Below, piece by piece: positions 1 through 48,782 of a stretch of DNA of 51,359 nt; positions within the stretch are counted from its first letter, which is position 1; each line of letters starts with the position of its first letter. This stretch comes from a phage, in the sequence record PZ452592.1; one strand, written 5' to 3'. A program made the position numbers and the translations under genes. The notes beneath the pieces were generated by a model. The model searched no databases. It was given only the letters and a program-made list of their open reading frames with translations, and was not told the DNA's origin.

Positions 1-1569
1 ATGATCATATGGGAAGATTTGACGGCGGCGCAAAAGCGAGCCATTAAAGAAATCAGTGAGCATTCATTCGAAAAGATGATCAGAATCTGGTTTCAGTTAT
101 TGCAGGGGCAAAAATTCCAGAGCAACTGGCATTTTAGCTTATTGTGCAGTGAGGTAGAGAAGATCATCAATGGAGAGTCGCAGAATGTGATTTTCAACAT
201 TACGCCAGGTAGCGGTAAGACTGAGATTTTCTCGATCCACATGTCACCCTACGCGTCATTGAAAAGTCGTAAGGTGAGAAACCTTAACCTTTCGTTTAGT
301 GATGGACTTGTCCAGCAAAACAGCAACAGGATAAAGGAGATTATCGGTTCTCCTGAGTGGCAAGAGCTATGGCCAGGAAAACTGGCAAAGGCGAGCGCAA
401 AAGATCTCATAGTTACGGATGGCGGCAAGGTTAAATTGCAAGTTAACTCACGTTCTATTGGCGGACAGGTAACAGGTTTGCGTGGCGGCTATATGGATGA
501 TGGTTTTACTGGTATGCTGGTTCTGGACGATCCAGACAAGCCTGATGATATGCTTTCTAAGGTCAAGCGTGAGGCGATCCACATGAGGTTAAAAAACACA
601 GTGCGTTCTCGTCGAATGAAAGACACCACGCCAATTGTTATGGTGCAACAGCGACTACACGTTAATGATTCCACCTGGTTCATGCTTAATGGCGGGATGG
701 GCGGTATTGAGTTTAAAGTTGTGAGCATTCCTGCGCTGGTTACGAAAGAATACCGCGAAACGCTTCCTGATTGGTTGAAGCCTGAATTTGATCGTGATGT
801 GTTGTCAAGTAAGCCAGTGATGATAGATGGAGTTGCTCATTATTCATTTTGGCCTGCAAAGGAAAGCGCGGAGGAATTGCTTGCATTGCGCAATGCAGAT
901 CCTTACACGTTCGCCAGCCAATACCAACAACAACCCATCGCGCTTGGCGGCAACGTGTTTAAAACAGAGTGGTTCCAGTATTACGGCAGCGGCGAAAAAT
1001 GCGCACTTCCTAAACCGGATCGCTTTGAATACACATTTATTACTGGAGATACAGCACAGAAGGCCGGAGAGCTTAACGACTATTCAGTTTTTTGTTATTG
1101 GGGGATGTATAAAAATCGCGTTTACTTCATTGATGGCATTCGCGGCAAGTGGGAAGCGCCAGATCTTGAATTAAATTTTATTGCCTTCGTTAATCAGTGC
1201 TGGAAGCGCAATAAGGAGTGTGGCAGCTTGCGACGTATTCACATTGAGGATAAGGCCAGCGGCACGGGTTTGATTCAGGGGGCCAAAAAGAAGATCCCGA
1301 TTGATATAAATCCCGTTCAGCGAAGCAATGACAAGGTAACGCGAGCAATGGACGCCGCGCCAGTAATGAGGGCAGGACGTGTGGCACTGCCAGAAAGTCA
1401 TCCCATGTTACCTGAGATACTGGCAGAGGTTGCAGCGTTCACTTTTGACGATTCTCATCCCCATGATGATATTGTCGATAATATAGTTGATGCTGTTAAC
1501 GTCGAAATGAACTTGGCAGATGATCCGGTAGCAAGGATGAAAAAGCTGGCTGGTCTACGCAATAAATAG
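1..1569 (+). CDS. terL: terminase large subunit
   Basis: 522-aa ORF with P-loop-like TPGSGKTE; directly follows terS (wrapping from window end) and precedes portal. Confidence 0.85.
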   Translation: MIIWEDLTAAQKRAIKEISEHSFEKMIRIWFQLLQGQKFQSNWHFSLLCSEVEKIINGESQNVIFNITPGSGKTEIFSIHMSPYASLKSRKVRNLNLSFSDGLVQQNSNRIKEIIGSPEWQELWPGKLAKASAKDLIVTDGGKVKLQVNSRSIGGQVTGLRGGYMDDGFTGMLVLDDPDKPDDMLSKVKREAIHMRLKNTVRSRRMKDTTPIVMVQQRLHVNDSTWFMLNGGMGGIEFKVVSIPALVTKEYRETLPDWLKPEFDRDVLSSKPVMIDGVAHYSFWPAKESAEELLALRNADPYTFASQYQQQPIALGGNVFKTEWFQYYGSGEKCALPKPDRFEYTFITGDTAQKAGELNDYSVFCYWGMYKNRVYFIDGIRGKWEAPDLELNFIAFVNQCWKRNKECGSLRRIHIEDKASGTGLIQGAKKKIPIDINPVQRSNDKVTRAMDAAPVMRAGRVALPESHPMLPEILAEVAAFTFDDSHPHDDIVDNIVDAVNVEMNLADDPVARMKKLAGLRNK

Positions 1570-1595
1570 CACTAATTGCTAAAAAGTTATATAAT
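1567..1595 (+). promoter_or_regulatory. variant 19-mer box (TAGCACTAATTGCTAAAAAG) followed directly by TATATAAT
   Basis: box overlaps terL stop TAG; TATAAT at 1590-1595 but no 18-nt spacer as in canonical cassettes. Confidence 0.3.
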
Positions 1596-9966: not shown

Positions 9967-9981
9967 CAAGGAGATCTTGAG

Positions 9982-24288: not shown

Positions 24289-24441
24289 TTATTTTAGATA
24301 CGGTTTCAACTTATTGTCAACATCAGCAGTTGATGCTTTTCCGGCAACATCCTGTTTTAGTGTCGAAACATCCTGTTTTAGTGTCGAAACATCACTTTTC
24401 AGCTTCGTTATATCACTAGGTATAACAGTGACTGTAGCCAT
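24289..24441 (-). CDS. mini-ORF with heptad repeats, in frame with S74-domain ORF
   Basis: 50 codons, RBS GGAG 8 nt upstream of ATG 24441; contains 21-bp tandem repeats; a single TAA separates it from the next ORF. Confidence 0.35.
   Translation of the reverse strand: MATVTVIPSDITKLKSDVSTLKQDVSTLKQDVAGKASTADVDNKLKPYLK
24346..24408. repeat. 21-bp tandem repeat x3 (third copy degenerate)
   Basis: AACATCCTGTTTTAGTGTCGA at 24346 and 24367, degenerate copy at 24388. Confidence 0.8.
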
Positions 24442-26708: not shown

Positions 26709-26726
26709 TTGTAAAATCCTCCTAAA

Positions 26727-26746
26727 TAGCACTTTTTGCTAATGAC
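26727..26746 (+). promoter_or_regulatory. off-pattern copy of 19-mer box (TAGCACTTTTTGCTAATGAC)
   Basis: on + strand between fibre gene start and a minus-strand terminator; no -10 at cassette spacing. Confidence 0.3.
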
Positions 26747-31590: not shown

Positions 31591-31848
31591 ATGAAAAAAG
31601 AGAGAAGCGTTTATTTAAATGAAACTGGCGAGTGGTTGTTATTTCGCGCTATGGTGTGCGATGCACTTGATAAAAACCCTAACGTGAAAAAGATGATTGA
31701 TTGCGATCCGTGGGAATTTTCAAGCGCATTAGATATTAGCTTTGATGAGACAAGAAAACTCCCTCTTGAAAAATGGCACGAACAAATCAGAAATGATATG
31801 CAAGAGTTTGTAGATTCGTGGAATTTTCAGAACGGAATGATCCACTAA
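31591..31848 (+). CDS. hypothetical protein
   Basis: 85-aa ORF, GGAG 8 nt upstream. Confidence 0.5.
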   Translation: MKKERSVYLNETGEWLLFRAMVCDALDKNPNVKKMIDCDPWEFSSALDISFDETRKLPLEKWHEQIRNDMQEFVDSWNFQNGMIH

Positions 31849-31891
31849 TAGCACTTTTTGTTAAAACGCCCGGCATTTTGTCGGGCATAAT
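31849..31891 (+). promoter_or_regulatory. 19-mer promoter cassette
   Basis: TAGCACTTTTTGTTAAAAC + 18-nt hairpin GCCCGGC...GTCGGGC + CATAAT, then TTCATCGAAACGAA leader. Confidence 0.5.
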
Positions 31892-31917
31892 TATTTCATC
31901 GAAACGAACGTGAGGAA

Positions 31918-35029: not shown

Positions 35030-35065
35030 AATTTTACCTTTTGGTTGTTTCGTTTCGATGAAACA

Positions 35066-37872: not shown

Positions 37873-37901
37873 GATTAGATCTCCTTTGTTTGTTCGATGT
37901 G

Positions 37902-39788: not shown

Positions 39789-39819
39789 CTTTAAATCCTC
39801 GCTTGTTGTCGATGGGTGT

Positions 39820-40292: not shown

Positions 40293-40325
40293 TTTCAAAT
40301 CCTCGCATTCGTTGTCGATGCGTGT

Positions 40326-41595: not shown

Positions 41596-41629
41596 TGCTA
41601 TCTCCTGAGCGGTTCGTTTTGATGTGTGT

Positions 41630-42228: not shown

Positions 42229-42256
42229 TTGACACGCACCAAATAGCTTTTATAAT
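42229..42256 (+). promoter_or_regulatory. sigma70-type promoter (consensus hexamers)
   Basis: TTGACA - 16 nt - TATAAT, 32 nt upstream of ATG 42288. Confidence 0.65.
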
Positions 42257-42287
42257 GCGCCAACAGTCAACAACCGGAGGAAAGGAA

Positions 42288-42752
42288 ATGGAACAGAAAA
42301 CCACTAAGGACTATTGCGATTGGCTTCGCGAGCTTGGTCGCCGCCTGGCTAGTGGAGATATTGAAGAGTATAAAATGTCACTAATTGACCTGGCCGGAAT
42401 GTTAAGCGGTGACGACTGCTACAAGATCACGCGCAGTTCATCCTACAGCCGGACCATTATCAACCGCATTCCAGAAGTAAGGGCCGCAGGTCGGGTAAGC
42501 ATCAAGGTAGAGGAAACGGAAGATGATAAATTTTACGTTTTCCGCATGGTCCGCGAATCGAAAAGGAAAATCATCACACCCGAAGAATTGCCAGCCATCA
42601 AGGCAAGGGCGATCAAAAAGTTTGCCGATCGCTTGCTGGCAGCAATCCCGAATATCGTTGACCTGGAAGGGGATAAACTGGCTGGAGCTTGTGAGGGCGT
42701 AAGCCGCTACCAGGATATGATCCGCGAAATCATCAAAGAGGAAGAGCAATGA
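42288..42752 (+). CDS. hypothetical early protein
   Basis: 154-aa ORF from ATG 42288 with RBS GGAGG (track start 42255 lies inside the promoter). Confidence 0.5.
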   Translation: MEQKTTKDYCDWLRELGRRLASGDIEEYKMSLIDLAGMLSGDDCYKITRSSSYSRTIINRIPEVRAAGRVSIKVEETEDDKFYVFRMVRESKRKIITPEELPAIKARAIKKFADRLLAAIPNIVDLEGDKLAGACEGVSRYQDMIREIIKEEEQ

Positions 42753-43021
42753 AAAAGGCATTAATCAGCGTTTTGGTGGCAATGGCATTCCTGACCGGAT
42801 GCAAAGAAGATGGCGCGCATGTTGGCAATGTGCAGATGGCTAACCCTGGCGATGACTACAGCGTAAGGGAGCTATTCACCGCTGACGGTTGCACAGTTTA
42901 CCGATTCTATGACGATCGCACTGTTTACTTCACCAACTGCAAGGGAACGACTAGCTGGGAAGTGTCGAAAAGCAACGGTAAAGGCACAACAACAGAATAT
43001 ATGACCGTCGAGACAAAATAG
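42749..43021 (+). CDS. lipoprotein
   Basis: signal peptide with lipobox MKKALISVLVAMAFLTGC; ATGA overlap with upstream stop. Confidence 0.55.
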   Translation: MKKALISVLVAMAFLTGCKEDGAHVGNVQMANPGDDYSVRELFTADGCTVYRFYDDRTVYFTNCKGTTSWEVSKSNGKGTTTEYMTVETK

Positions 43022-43061
43022 CACTTTTTGTTAAAACGCCAGGTGCAAAGCCTGGCATAAT
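43019..43061 (+). promoter_or_regulatory. 19-mer promoter cassette
   Basis: TAGCACTTTTTGTTAAAAC + 18-nt perfect hairpin GCCAGG...CCTGGC + CATAAT + TCATCGAAACGA leader. Confidence 0.5.
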
Positions 43062-43093
43062 AGCCTCATCGAAACGAGATTGAGGAAACAAAA

Positions 43094-43279
43094 ATGGCAC
43101 GTCGCATCACCAAAGACCTTAAAGTCCTGAACAAAGAAAACGTAGTTAAAATCCTGGTTATATGGGGCTACAACGAAGAAGCAGCAAAGCAGAAGGTAGA
43201 GGCAGGTTATGACCTGGCTGTAAAAGCAATGCCAAACGACGACGCCAAAGGCATTGCAAACTATGTAGCGTTCTTTTAA
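43094..43279 (+). CDS. hypothetical protein
   Basis: 61-aa ORF, RBS GAGG. Confidence 0.5.
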   Translation: MARRITKDLKVLNKENVVKILVIWGYNEEAAKQKVEAGYDLAVKAMPNDDAKGIANYVAFF

Positions 43280-43578: not shown

Positions 43579-44472
43579 ATGTTAAAACTTGCTGACATTA
43601 AATTCCCGATCACCTTCGAATCTCGCGGCATTGGTCATTACATTTTTACCGATGAAAAAACATGCCATAAAGTTGATTTGCATAGCTACAAGCGTGCGCC
43701 ATCAAGCATGGAGATTGAACACTTCATTGATGCACATAACAAGCACTACAACGCACTTAAAGACTATGGCTATGCAATGCCAGGCTACACATGTTTGCAC
43801 TACAAGCCATATAAGGGACAGGTGTTACCAGTACGCTCACCGGAACGCGCAGAGATTCCGATGGTCAATATGAAAACCTGCGACTACAAAAAGCTGTGGT
43901 GCTTAAGTCTGGACAATATCAAGTATCCGATCACGTTCCACACGACTGGTAAGTCAACGATTCGCTACACATCGCGCGAAAATGGCGTTTATAGCGATGG
44001 TACGAAATCAGAGTTGAAAGTTGATTTCTTTGTCAACGGTCACAACAAATTCAATCCGCACAACGAAGAGGATAAAGTGTACTACGTGGAAGACATTACA
44101 AAACACTTGTTTGGAGAAACTCCATTCGGCGGCGGTAAGACGTCAATTCAAAAAATCATTGGCGATGAGATCCACAAAGCGGCTGCCGAAATGAAAGCGC
44201 CTGGAGGCTGGCGTATTGACAAGAGCGCATTTGCAAATCAAGAAATCGTAACGCAGGGCGCAATTGAAGATATGCCAGTTGCAGCCACGCTAAAAGGAGT
44301 CCGGCTTGATGATGGTGTGTGGTTTGAAGTAACGGCTACACCAAAGACGATCGAGATTCATGATGACGTTGTTATTCTTCTGCTTCACTACGGCGGCTAT
44401 AAAAACCGGACGATTGCAGGTGAGATCAGCATCAAGCGCGGAACGATGGTTAAGTGGAAGGTCAAAGTGTAA
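43579..44472 (+). CDS. hypothetical protein with internal duplication
   Basis: 297 aa; two related segments (LADIKFPITFESRGIGHYIF / LDNIKYPITFHTTGKSTIRY); RBS AGGAG. Confidence 0.55.
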   Translation: MLKLADIKFPITFESRGIGHYIFTDEKTCHKVDLHSYKRAPSSMEIEHFIDAHNKHYNALKDYGYAMPGYTCLHYKPYKGQVLPVRSPERAEIPMVNMKTCDYKKLWCLSLDNIKYPITFHTTGKSTIRYTSRENGVYSDGTKSELKVDFFVNGHNKFNPHNEEDKVYYVEDITKHLFGETPFGGGKTSIQKIIGDEIHKAAAEMKAPGGWRIDKSAFANQEIVTQGAIEDMPVAATLKGVRLDDGVWFEVTATPKTIEIHDDVVILLLHYGGYKNRTIAGEISIKRGTMVKWKVKV

Positions 44473-44473
44473 A

Positions 44474-44515
44474 TAGCACGAATTGTTAAAACTCAAATGT
44501 GGGGCCAGGTATAAT
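44474..44515 (+). promoter_or_regulatory. 19-mer promoter cassette
   Basis: TAGCACGAATTGTTAAAAC + 17 nt + TATAAT inside hairpin GTGGGGCC...GGCCCCAC. Confidence 0.5.
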
Positions 44516-45755: not shown

Positions 45756-45913
45756 CTTGGTTGCTTTTAATCTTTGTCACAAGTTACAACTCCGCAGCTA
45801 TTGAGTCGCAGGAGTTCCACGGCGAATCAAGATGCCAGGAAGCGCGAAAGCAAGTTGTTCTCCACATGTCAGATAGTGGGAAGGATGTAACAGCGTTATG
45901 CGTTCGTAAATAG
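45752..45913 (+). CDS. small hypothetical protein with hydrophobic N-terminus (53 aa)
   Basis: not in ORF track; ATGA overlap with upstream stop; stop TAG is the first triplet of the 19-mer. Confidence 0.4.
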   Translation: MTWLLLIFVTSYNSAAIESQEFHGESRCQEARKQVVLHMSDSGKDVTALCVRK

Positions 45914-45954: not shown

Positions 45955-45985
45955 AAGCCCATCAACAACAAACGAGGATTAAATC

Positions 45986-46825: not shown

Positions 46826-47416
46826 ATGAAACGAGACATTATCATCCTTAATGGGCCGCCAGGTTGCGGGAAGGACACTATTGCAGCTTACCTAACGGGC
46901 CATCGTTACCCTGCTGTCAAGGCGTCATTCAAACAGCCGATGTTCGATATTGCTTTTTCTATGCTGGGCGTGTACCGATACGATGAATTTATGGACCTGT
47001 ATAACGACAGAGAGCAAAAAGAAAAGCCTCAAGTTATCTTAGGCGGCAAGTCACCTAGACAATTCATGATCTGGATTAGCGAGGATGTAATGAAGCCAGT
47101 TTTTGGAGATCACTATTTCGGGCGTCGAATGGTTGAAGAGATTCACGAGATGTACCGAGATTTAGCGGTTGTGATCAGCGATGGAGGATTCCCCGAAGAA
47201 GTCAAGCCGCTTGTTAAGGCAGGGCATGAGGTGCATATTTGCCGATTGCATCGCGACGGCTTCACGTTTGCTGGCGATTCGAGAGACTACATTGACCTGA
47301 GCGGTTATCACTATCGAATCCATCACTATGACTTCCACTTGCAGGACGGCAAGCCGGAACTGGCTGTAAACGAGATCGTCAATGCTGTCAAATGGAAGCA
47401 CACAAAGATTAAATAG
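46826..47416 (+). CDS. P-loop nucleotide kinase (dNMP-kinase-like)
   Basis: N-terminal Walker A MKRDIIILNGPPGCGKDT resembles phage dNMP kinases; RBS AAGGGGAG. Confidence 0.55.
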   Translation: MKRDIIILNGPPGCGKDTIAAYLTGHRYPAVKASFKQPMFDIAFSMLGVYRYDEFMDLYNDREQKEKPQVILGGKSPRQFMIWISEDVMKPVFGDHYFGRRMVEEIHEMYRDLAVVISDGGFPEEVKPLVKAGHEVHICRLHRDGFTFAGDSRDYIDLSGYHYRIHHYDFHLQDGKPELAVNEIVNAVKWKHTKIK

Positions 47417-47456
47417 CACGAATTGCTAAACGCGAGGCGCAATGCCTCGCTATAAT
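47414..47456 (+). promoter_or_regulatory. 19-mer promoter cassette
   Basis: TAGCACGAATTGCTAAAC + 19-nt hairpin GCGAGGCGCAATGCCTCGC + TATAAT. Confidence 0.5.
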
Positions 47457-48750: not shown

Positions 48751-48782
48751 GCCCTTATTGAAGCGAAACAGAGGAAAGCGCA

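What the first reader, a model, noticed from the sequence alone, without database searches (positions are those of the whole stretch)
43057..43096. Conserved initial transcribed leader (CATCGAAACGA-like) shared by many cassettes
Immediately downstream of the -10-like hexamer, several cassettes share a leader: TTCATCGAAACGAACG (31897), TCATCGAAACGAGA (43067), TTTCATCGAAACGAAAC (minus strand, 35050 region), CATCGACAACA (39800 region), CATCGACAACG (40310 region), CATCGAACAAAC (37890 region), CATCAAAACGAA (41610 region). Conservation past the -10 is not needed for promoter recognition, so this may be an RNA-level element (translation enhancer, RNase site, or regulator binding the 5-prime UTR).
Basis: seen in the sequence. 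Interest (0 to 1): 0.4.

Follow-up and report, generated by a model that had tools for sequence, protein, structure and literature searches.

The report
Shared start-and-leader motif of phage early promoters
The repeated CATCGAAACGA "leader" is real: it is the predicted transcription start and first ~13 transcribed bases of a promoter cassette copied many times in this T1-like phage. Nearly the same sequence sits at the same place in early promoters of unrelated phages (T4-like, phi80-like, some cyanophages), so it looks like a conserved but so far unnamed part of these promoters.

Summary
The window is a T1-like coliphage genome (Drexlerviridae, Warwickvirus-like). It carries 20 copies of a known 21-nt direct repeat (AATAGCACnnnTTGnTAAAA). 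In most copies an 18-nt variable spacer follows, often a GC hairpin, then an extended -10 hexamer. In eight copies the next elements are exactly 5 nt, the motif C-A-T-C-G-A-A/C-A-C-G/A-A, a Shine-Dalgarno site, and an ATG about 26 nt after the A.

Across 223 cassette groups from related phages the -1..+11 block is about as conserved as the -10. Within orthologous cassettes it diverges 3-4 times less than the flanking discriminator and spacer.

The same motif, 5 nt after a -10, occurs in:
- RB49 PeSL cassettes, which are validated strong early promoters;
- T4-like phages of Klebsiella and Cronobacter;
- phi80 pL, which is followed by about 400 nt without a gene;
- T4-like cyanophages.

T7 A1 and A3 start with CATCGA and CATGAAACGA.

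Most likely this is the start site plus a T-free initial transcribed sequence of host-polymerase early promoters, which also forms the short 5' UTR. A purely translational or regulator-binding role is less likely. The mechanism is inferred, not shown.

The parts
43017..43037 (+). 21-nt direct repeat AATAGCACTTTTTGTTAAAAC (predicted -51..-31). It overlaps the stop codon of the upstream ORF 42749-43021.
   Evidence: the same consensus was described for phage TLS (PMC11447400)
43038..43056 (+). Spacer hairpin GCCAGG-TGCAAAG-CCTGGC. Its last C is the first base of the -10 hexamer.
   Evidence: folds in the read-through RNA; the equivalent hairpins at 31868-31886(+) and 35089-35071(-) score as terminator-like
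43053..43061 (+). Extended -10: TGG + CATAAT (hexamer 43056-43061).
   Evidence: in 223 groups G-14 0.86, A-11 0.86, T-7 0.87
43062..43066 (+). Discriminator AGCCT, poorly conserved among cassettes.
43067..43080 (+). The leader CATCGAAACGAGAT; predicted start at A43068 (position 43067 is -1, 43080 is +13).
   Evidence: 35/41 identity of 43056-43096 to the region upstream of RB49 ORF196
43082..43085 (+). Shine-Dalgarno GAGG.
43094..43279 (+). Downstream ORF of 61 aa, unrelated to the RB49 ORF that follows the near-identical leader.
31897..31910 (+). Leader copy CATCGAAACGAACG, 5 nt after CATAAT (31886-31891); repeat at 31847-31867.
35047..35060 (-). Leader copy CATCGAAACGAAAC (14/14 to consensus), 5 nt after TATATT (35071-35066); repeat at 35110-35090.
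39801..39814 (-). Leader copy CATCGACAACAAGC, 5 nt after TATATT.
40307..40320 (-). Leader copy CATCGACAACGAAT, 5 nt after TACATT.
41611..41624 (-). Leader copy CATCAAAACGAACC, 5 nt after TACATT.
45960..45973 (+). Leader copy CATCAACAACAAAC, 5 nt after TATAGT.
48756..48769 (+). Degenerate leader TATTGAAGCGAAAC, 5 nt after TAAAGT.
37886..37899 (-). Shifted leader CATCGAACAAACAA, only 2 nt after CATAAT.

Best explanation
The motif is the transcription start (C-1, A+1) plus the first ~13 transcribed bases of a repeated early-promoter cassette read by the host RNA polymerase.

The cassette runs in this order:
- the stop codon of the upstream gene;
- a 21-nt AT-rich repeat at -51..-31;
- a variable spacer, usually a GC hairpin;
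- an extended -10;
- a 5-nt discriminator;
- CATCGAAACGA(AAC);
- a Shine-Dalgarno site and then ATG.

Shown here: the anatomy, the fixed register, the purifying selection, and the presence of the same block in other phage early promoters.

Inferred:
- Transcription starts at the A.
- The T-free, A/C-rich and purine-rich initial sequence is selected mainly because it lets polymerase initiate and leave a tightly bound promoter quickly.
- As a by-product the block supplies the whole short, unstructured 5' UTR in front of the ribosome site.
For: Register and selection:
- 92% of matches at or above 11 bits that follow the repeat lie at one offset from it (262 of 285). The gap after the -10 is 5 nt, which puts the A seven bases after the hexamer.
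- Conservation switches on at -1 and fades after +12.
- Divergence within orthologous cassettes is 0.037 per site, equal to the -10 (0.037), against 0.115 and 0.144 for the flanks.
- The leader score rises with -10 quality (rho 0.45). Repeat copies without a -10 also lack the leader.

Same block in other early promoters:
- RB49 PeSL cassettes have CATCGAAACGAGAT or CATACCGAAACGAA after CATAAT/TATAAT plus 5 nt. PeSLs were shown to be very strong promoters in E. coli (PMC2839356), and RB49 early 5' ends were mapped (PMC1524935).
- The motif follows canonical TTGACA/TTGCAT-17-TAnnnT promoters in KP15 and in Cronobacter T4-like phages.
- It follows the annotated -35 and -10 of phi80 pL.
- The annotated start sites of T7 A1 and A3 read C[A]TCGAGAGG and C[A]TGAAACGACAG.

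The reversed motif gave 30, and the motif with the hexamer moved 10 nt further gave 17.

Composition: T is 5% at +3..+13 against 23% in coding sequence, even in cassettes whose leader departs from the consensus, and TG is rare. Heyduk & Heyduk 2018 found that the first 10 transcribed bases change escape rate by about three orders of magnitude, and that slow sequences carry 2-3 T's, often as TG, in the first ~7 bases (PMC5961368).
Against: - There are no 5'-end data for this phage or any T1-like phage, so the start at the A is predicted only.
- The cassettes lack a -35 at 16-18 bp (TTGTTA lies 22 bp from the -10), so promoter activity rests on homology and on the extended -10.
- The motif contains two C-G steps, which resemble the Y-G part of the pause consensus. 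T at +2 was a slow-escape feature on lacUV5.
- In T1-like cassettes the motif is also at a fairly fixed distance from the ATG (median 25-26 nt). In cyanophage examples its 3' half keeps its distance to the ATG while its distance to the -10 varies. Both fit an RNA-level role.
- T-avoidance could equally serve to keep the RNA unstructured.
Confidence: 0.55

Rival explanations
1. RNA-level translation element. The A-rich 13-nt 5' end acts as a ribosome standby or S1-binding enhancer for the small ORF that follows.
For: - The +1-to-ATG distance is tight (25-26 nt in 68 of 132 cassettes).
- The motif abuts the Shine-Dalgarno site.
- In cyanophage contigs AAACGAAAC lies 5-6 nt before an ATG with no Shine-Dalgarno site.
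- Transcripts starting at +1 are predicted to be unstructured.
Against: - The identical 14-mer heads phi80-type pL transcripts, which run into nutL and reach N only after about 410 nt.
- Strong motif matches are almost never found in front of genes without the cassette promoter (121 of 130 lie in the cassette). Sub-motifs elsewhere in the window are at background level.
- There is no complementarity to 16S rRNA (-5.9 kcal/mol, against a mean of -9.8 for shuffles).
- The natural base order gives no better predicted ribosome-site accessibility than shuffles of itself (0.615 vs 0.622), and only 0.016 more than random leaders.
- 92% of copies sit at one offset from the promoter, whereas at most about 28% sit at any single distance from the ATG.
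Confidence: 0.2
2. Recombination linker or hitch-hiking. The block is kept alike because the cassettes act as homology patches for modular gene shuffling and are homogenised by gene conversion. Its sequence has no direct role in expression.
For: - In RB49, mini-circle crossovers were mapped between the -10 and the ATG or Shine-Dalgarno site of PeSLs (PMC2839356).
- In this phage, a one-ORF-plus-cassette indel relative to phage tonnikala is bounded by repeats at 44465/44471, and a mosaic boundary falls exactly at repeat start 45909.
- A near-identical -10-to-ATG segment precedes unrelated ORFs in RB49 and in the window.
Against: - Conservation is block-wise. The discriminator and spacer lying between conserved blocks diverge 3-4 times faster, which conversion tracts would not produce.
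- The same consensus is kept in phage families with different hosts, which can hardly exchange DNA often (cyanophages; lambdoids).
- The leader co-varies with -10 quality.
Confidence: 0.15
3. Binding or cleavage site for a specific factor: an operator for a phage early-gene repressor, an RNase site, or a determinant of 5'-end stability or capping.
For: The sequence-specific conservation of 12-13 consecutive positions resembles a binding site. T1-type genomes encode HTH proteins (T1 annotation).
Against: - The motif is shared by phages with unrelated regulator sets.
- It has no dyad or repeat symmetry beyond CGAAA CGAAA.
- No Rfam family matches the window or related loci.
- The -3..-1 bases are C-rich, not the purines reported to favour NAD capping (this last point is from my own knowledge and was not tested).
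Confidence: 0.07

Closest known systems
PeSL (promoter-early stem-loop) cassettes of T4-type phages RB49/phi1 (Arbiol et al. 2010, PMC2839356; Comeau et al. 2014, PMC4122927)
   Same: - Intergenic cassettes that begin at the upstream stop codon in an AT-rich tract, with a GC stem-loop between the promoter hexamers or over the -10, and Shine-Dalgarno plus ATG at the 3' end.
- Many copies in front of small ORFs, lying at indel boundaries.
- The RB49 cassettes carry the same leader (CATCGAAACGAGAT, CATACCGAAACGAA).
   Different: - The T1-type cassette has no -35 at 16-18 bp. Instead the invariant 21-nt repeat occupies -51..-31 and the -10 is of the extended type.
- The PeSL papers list the AT-rich tract, -35, -10, stem-loop and Shine-Dalgarno site as components, but not the start/leader block.
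21-nt direct repeats of T1-like phages (TLS re-annotation 2024, PMC11447400)
   Same: The same repeat (aaATAGCACnnnTTGnTAAAA), the same orientation, and about 76 nt upstream of start codons. There are 20 copies in this window, of the TTT, GAA and TAA types.
   Different: That paper left the function open (stoperator, enhancer site or UP element). In the section read it mentions neither the -10 at a fixed 18-nt distance nor the conserved leader.
Initial transcribed sequences of classic strong phage promoters (T7 A1 and A3; T5 N25) and ITS control of promoter escape (Heyduk & Heyduk 2018, PMC5961368)
   Same: - T7 A1 starts C[A]TCGA and A3 starts C[A]TGAAACGA.
- The ITS is known to set promoter output and has been argued to be part of the promoter.
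- Slow ITS are T-rich or TG-rich, whereas this one is T-free.
   Different: No shared ITS consensus across phage families had been reported in the papers I could read. The effect of this particular sequence on escape has not been measured.
pL promoter and nutL leader of phi80-type lambdoid phages
   Same: TTGACC-17-TTTAAT-TACTC-CATCGAAACGAAAC. In related prophages, dozens of different operator (immunity) types sit upstream of the same transcript start.
   Different: The transcript runs into boxA/nutL and an N gene about 410 nt away, with no adjacent ribosome site. There is no 21-nt repeat.

Membership tests
PeSL cassette (T4-type phages) | Intergenic; begins at or includes the stop codon of the upstream gene in an AT-rich tract | tested here: met
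   The repeat AATAG... follows or supplies the stop codon in the cassettes.
PeSL cassette (T4-type phages) | Sigma-70-type -10 hexamer | tested here: met
   TAnnnT lies at a fixed 18 nt after the repeat; A-11 0.86, T-7 0.87, G-14 0.86.
PeSL cassette (T4-type phages) | Sigma-70-type -35 hexamer 16-18 bp upstream of the -10 | tested here: not met
   TTGTTA lies 22 bp from the -10 and the hexamer at 17 bp is AAAACN. The generic scan does not pick up the cassettes.
PeSL cassette (T4-type phages) | GC stem-loop between the hexamers or overlapping the -10, able to act as a terminator/attenuator | tested here: inconclusive
   Hairpins are present in most cassettes. Two score as terminator-like with the -10/discriminator as the T-tail. 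Termination itself was not testable.
PeSL cassette (T4-type phages) | Shine-Dalgarno site and start codon at the 3' end | tested here: met
   Start codon at a median of 25-26 nt after +1.
PeSL cassette (T4-type phages) | Sequence of the -10-to-ATG segment like that of RB49 PeSLs | tested here: met
   35/41 identity between window 43056-43096 and the region upstream of RB49 ORF196.
PeSL cassette (T4-type phages) | Lies at insertion/deletion and mosaic boundaries between close relatives | tested here: met
   Indel at 44465/44471 and mosaic boundary at 45909, relative to phages tonnikala and Poky. Only two junctions were examined.
PeSL cassette (T4-type phages) | Measured promoter activity; mini-circle formation | not testable with these tools
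   Needs reporter fusions, inverse PCR or 5'-end mapping.
T1-like 21-nt direct repeat (TLS) | Consensus aaATAGCACnnnTTGnTAAAA, co-oriented with the genes, about 76 nt before the start codon | tested here: met
   20 copies in the window; 51 + 25 nt = 76.
Sigma-70-dependent promoter-proximal pause element (lambda PR' type) | A -10-like hexamer (TAnnnT-like) within the initial transcribed region | tested here: not met
   No T from +3 to +13.
Translational enhancer that pairs with 16S rRNA | Complementarity to 16S rRNA above chance | tested here: not met
   Duplex energy -5.9 kcal/mol, against a shuffle mean of -9.8; 99.7% of shuffles pair at least as well.
Curated structured RNA family (Rfam 15) | A covariance-model match at gathering score | tested here: not met
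   No match in the window or in four related loci. The leader RNA is predicted to be unstructured.

The most novel reading that the evidence does not exclude
AUCGAAACGAAAC is a pan-phage 'early leader'. On this reading it is a short 5'-terminal element kept from T1-like, T4-like and lambdoid phages of enterobacteria through to T4-like cyanophages, because a conserved host machine reads it specifically. That machine could be RNA polymerase during the first 13 nt, or the ribosome or an RNA-end sensor acting on the 5' end. The element would give early phage transcripts privileged output, for example during host shut-off. It would also be carried between phage families on mobile promoter cassettes.
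Probability: 0.15. Interest if true: 0.75.

Novelty: new variant of a known kind. Interest (0 to 1): 0.5.

Why it matters
- T1-like phages. Their transcription signals are poorly understood. Standard promoter searches find almost none (TLS paper), and the 21-nt repeat has no assigned function. Seeing that each repeat is followed at fixed distances by an extended -10, a CA start and a conserved leader turns the repeats into a testable promoter map of the early regions.
- Wider relevance. The same start/leader block in validated RB49 cassettes, KP15-type phages, phi80 pL and cyanophages suggests that the initial transcribed sequence is a selected, transferable part of strong phage promoters. That bears on how promoter escape is optimised in nature and on the design of compact expression cassettes.
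- Phage evolution. The results extend PeSL-type modular shuffling from T4-type myoviruses to siphoviruses.

Tried and rejected
1. Pairing of the leader with 16S rRNA: rejected.
2. Leader selected to keep the ribosome site open: the natural order is no better than shuffles of itself, and only 0.016 better than random leaders.
3. Read-through transcripts hide the ribosome site through an anti-SD in the discriminator or repeat. This idea came from the cassettes at 43025 and 40362.
   - Accessibility does fall from 0.73 to 0.52 in read-through RNA.
   - It falls just as much with upstream halves taken from other cassettes (0.526).
   - It also falls as much with shuffled upstream sequence (0.528), so the effect is not specific.
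4. Lambda-Q-type pause element: there is no -10-like hexamer in the leader.
5. TTGTTA as a -35: the spacing is 22 bp.
6. Rfam: no family matches.
7. Literature:
   - String searches for the motif and for the repeat found only unrelated primer hits.
   - No transcription-start-site study of a T1-like phage was found.
   - The RB49 5'-mapping paper and the S-PM2 genome paper are not held in the library.
8. Homology of the ORFs behind the near-identical RB49 and window leaders: none.

Full report
**What the window is.** A 5-kb stretch around the finding is 96-97% identical to Escherichia phages tinuso, tonn and tonnikala. These are Drexlerviridae, subfamily Tempevirinae, genus Warwickvirus. The 51.4-kb window is therefore essentially a whole T1-like genome. 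No RNA polymerase or sigma gene is known in this group (TLS paper, PMC11447400), so the host enzyme should transcribe it.

**The observation.**
- Positions 43057-43096 read ATAAT-AGCCT-CATCGAAACGAGAT-TGAGGAAACAAAA-ATG.
- The 11-mer CATCGAAACGA is found exactly three times, at 31897+, 35060-35050- and 43067+.
- With one mismatch there are five matches against 1.19 expected, and none of 100 shuffles reaches five. At two mismatches there is no excess.
I found two more, at 45960+ and a degenerate one at 48756+.

**Anatomy of the cassette.**
- The copies belong to a repeated intergenic cassette with 20 copies in the window.
- The order is: stop codon of the upstream gene; an almost invariant 21-mer AATAGCAC(TTT/GAA/TAA)TTG(T/C)TAAAA(C); an 18-nt variable spacer; a -10-like hexamer (CATAAT, TATATT, TACATT, TATAGT).
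- In eight copies the next elements are exactly 5 nt, then C-A-T-C-(G/A)-A-(A/C)-A-(A/C)-(G/A)-A, then a Shine-Dalgarno site and an ATG.
- The A of CAT lies seven bases after the hexamer, which is the usual start position.
- TTGTTA inside the 21-mer lies 22 bp from the -10, so it cannot act as a normal -35. The generic sigma-70 scan does not detect the cassettes, and it finds no more promoter-like sites than in shuffled sequence.
- The spacer usually forms a GC hairpin. In one type the hairpin lies wholly upstream of the -10. In two such cases (31868-31886+, 35089-35071-) the T-rich -10/discriminator acts as a terminator-like tail. In the other type the two arms bracket the -10, as in 48708+, 45911+ and 44474+.

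**Conservation in related phages.**
- A scan of IMG/VR for the 21-mer gave 120 loci from T1-like contigs, holding 371 distinct cassettes in 223 groups.
- With one sequence per group the frequencies are: G-14 0.86, A-11 0.86, T-7 0.87; low information in the discriminator; then C-1 0.72, A+1 0.80, T 0.52, C 0.56, G 0.58, A 0.70, A 0.73, A 0.75, C 0.53, G 0.46, A 0.65, A 0.69. Conservation fades after +12.
- I also grouped cassettes by their downstream coding sequence only, which gave 62 orthologous groups. Mean pairwise divergence within groups was as follows:

| Segment | Divergence per site |
|---|---|
| 21-mer repeat | 0.021 |
| spacer | 0.144 |
| -14..-7 | 0.037 |
| discriminator | 0.115 |
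| leader (-1..+11) | 0.037 |
| coding sequence | 0.061 |

- The leader is therefore as constrained as the -10 and 3-4 times more constrained than its neighbours.
- A weight matrix of the leader finds 130 strong matches in 2.2 Mb, and 121 of them lie at one fixed offset from the 21-mer.
- T1 itself has the same cassettes and leaders.
- The distance from +1 to the start codon is also narrow, with a median of 25-26 nt.
- The leader score rises with -10 quality. Repeat copies without a -10 also lack the leader.

**What is already published.**
- The 21-mer was described for TLS in 2024 as a direct repeat of unknown function, about 76 nt upstream of start codons. The section I read mentions neither a -10 nor a leader.
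- Composite "promoter-early stem-loop" (PeSL) cassettes were described for the T4-type phages RB49 and phi1.
  - Their listed components are an AT-rich tract with the stop codon, -35, -10, a GGGG/CCCC stem-loop, and Shine-Dalgarno plus ATG.
  - They showed very strong promoter activity in E. coli.
  - Recombination between cassettes was mapped between the -10 and the ATG.
- Neither paper singles out the start/leader block. No paper in the library contains the motif string in a phage context.

**The unexpected part: the motif in other phages.** The leader is not confined to T1-like phages.
The reversed motif gave 30 stretches, and the motif with the hexamer 10 nt further away gave 17.
- Carriers with canonical TTGACA/TTGCAT-17-TAnnnT promoters, often of PeSL form, include Klebsiella phage KP15, Cronobacter T4-like phages LPCS28 and S13 and other 150-183-kb contigs.
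- In RB49 itself the PeSLs read ...CATAAT ACACC CATCGAAACGAGATTGAGGAAATAAAGATG or ...TATAAT GCACC CATACCGAAACGAAAGGAG. The first is 35/41 identical to window 43056-43096, although the two downstream ORFs are unrelated.
- A large set of phi80-like prophages has many different operator sequences upstream but the same transcript start. In phi80 the annotated pL -35 and -10 are followed by TACTC-CATCGAAACGAAAC, then boxA/nutL, and the N gene begins about 410 nt later.
- Contigs related to T4-like cyanophages carry CCCTG-TAGACT-N5-CATCGAAACGAAAC-GAnCC-ATG. The cultured Synechococcus phage S-WAM2 has TAGAAT-TTACA-CATACCAAACGAAC.
- The annotated start sites of the T7 early promoters A1 and A3 read C[A]TCGAGAGG and C[A]TGAAACGACAG.

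**How it most likely works.**
- Conservation begins exactly at the predicted start.
- The register is locked to the -10 far more tightly than to the ATG: 92% of matches sit at one offset, against at most about 28% at any one distance from the ATG.
- The motif also occurs in front of a non-coding nut leader.
- It is shared by phages that have no regulators in common.
- Together these points favour a function at the level of the host polymerase: start-site choice plus an initial transcribed sequence suited to rapid escape.
- The block is almost free of T. T is 5% at +3..+13 against 23% in coding sequence, even in cassettes with divergent A/C-only leaders such as CACACCAACAAACGA, and TG is rare.
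- Heyduk & Heyduk (PMC5961368) showed that +2..+10 can change escape by about three orders of magnitude. Slow sequences carry two or three T's, often as TG, in the first ~7 bases. They argued that the ITS belongs to the promoter.
- This step is inference. Nothing here measures escape, and no 5' ends are mapped for any T1-like phage.

**Rival readings.**
- Translation. The narrow distance to the ATG and the cyanophage arrangement fit a translational role. Against it stand the phi80 case, the absence of the motif before genes without their own promoter, the lack of 16S complementarity, and the lack of any accessibility benefit of the natural base order.
- Recombination linker. This has real support from the RB49 crossovers and from two junctions in this phage: an indel at 44465/44471 and a mosaic boundary exactly at repeat start 45909. 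It does not explain why short blocks are conserved while the bases between them drift, nor why the same consensus is kept in cyanophages. I regard shuffling as a consequence of the conserved blocks rather than their cause.
- Specific regulator or RNase site. This is unlikely given the spread of the motif across phage families.

**Verdict.**
Its RNA-centred mechanisms are not the best fit.
- The cassette is a T1-type variant of the PeSL kind. It lacks a -35, and the 21-mer sits where a -35 or UP element would be.
- The start/leader block is a conserved, cross-family component that the accessible literature has not named.
- Interest is moderate. The result gives a concrete, testable promoter map for T1-like early regions. 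It also points to a naturally selected initial transcribed sequence shared by very different phages.

Noticed in passing
window 42229-42256 (+): A perfect TTGACA-16-TATAAT promoter, the only 12/12 match in 30-49.5 kb, lies in front of ORF 42255-42752. Its first transcribed bases are again A/C-rich (CAGTCAACAACC), and it has no 21-nt repeat.
   Followed up: partly
window 24346-24390: A tandem 21-bp repeat (ACATCCTGTTTTAGTGTCGAA, two copies) lies near the switch in strand composition.
   Followed up: no
window 9968-9880 (-) and 6213-6147 (-): Two copies of the 21-nt repeat point against the late genes. The one at 9968 has a TAGATT -10, followed about 25 nt later by the bidirectional terminator hairpin GGGGCGCAACGCCCC, so it could yield an antisense RNA of about 45 nt. 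T1 has the same arrangement (L121 18848-).
   Followed up: no
window 40349-40293 (-): A 15-nt inverted repeat, TCAATCCTCGCATTC / GAATGCGAGGATTTGA, brackets the -10, the start and the leader, and covers the Shine-Dalgarno site of the 40362 cassette. Across all cassettes, a general read-through occlusion of the ribosome site was not supported.
   Followed up: partly
window 44465-44471 and 45909; L282, L283: Relative to phage tonnikala, one cassette-plus-ORF unit (230 nt) is missing exactly at the GAA-type repeat at 44471. Homology to tonnikala and Poky also resumes exactly at repeat start 45909. The repeats therefore mark mosaic junctions, as PeSLs do in T4-type phages.
   Followed up: partly
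L015 (Klebsiella phage KP15), reverse strand 2269-2360: This T4-like myovirus carries a complete T1-type cassette, including an exact copy of the 21-nt repeat. Other KP15-type cassettes place the same repeat about 10 bp further upstream of a canonical -35.
   Followed up: partly
window 1565-1585 (+), 26725-26745 (+), 44472-44492 (+), 47412-47432 (+): Four further repeat copies of the TAA, TTT and GAA sub-types were missed by the first pattern. The copy at 26725 is followed by a poly-A tract and a hairpin rather than a -10.
   Followed up: no
L122-L231 (phi80-like prophage contigs): Dozens of different operator (immunity) sequences sit upstream of the same pL start, CATCGAAACGAAACATCGA, which is followed by an rrn-like boxA (TGCT(C/T)TTTAACAA). 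The boundary between variable and conserved sequence falls at the transcription start.
   Followed up: partly
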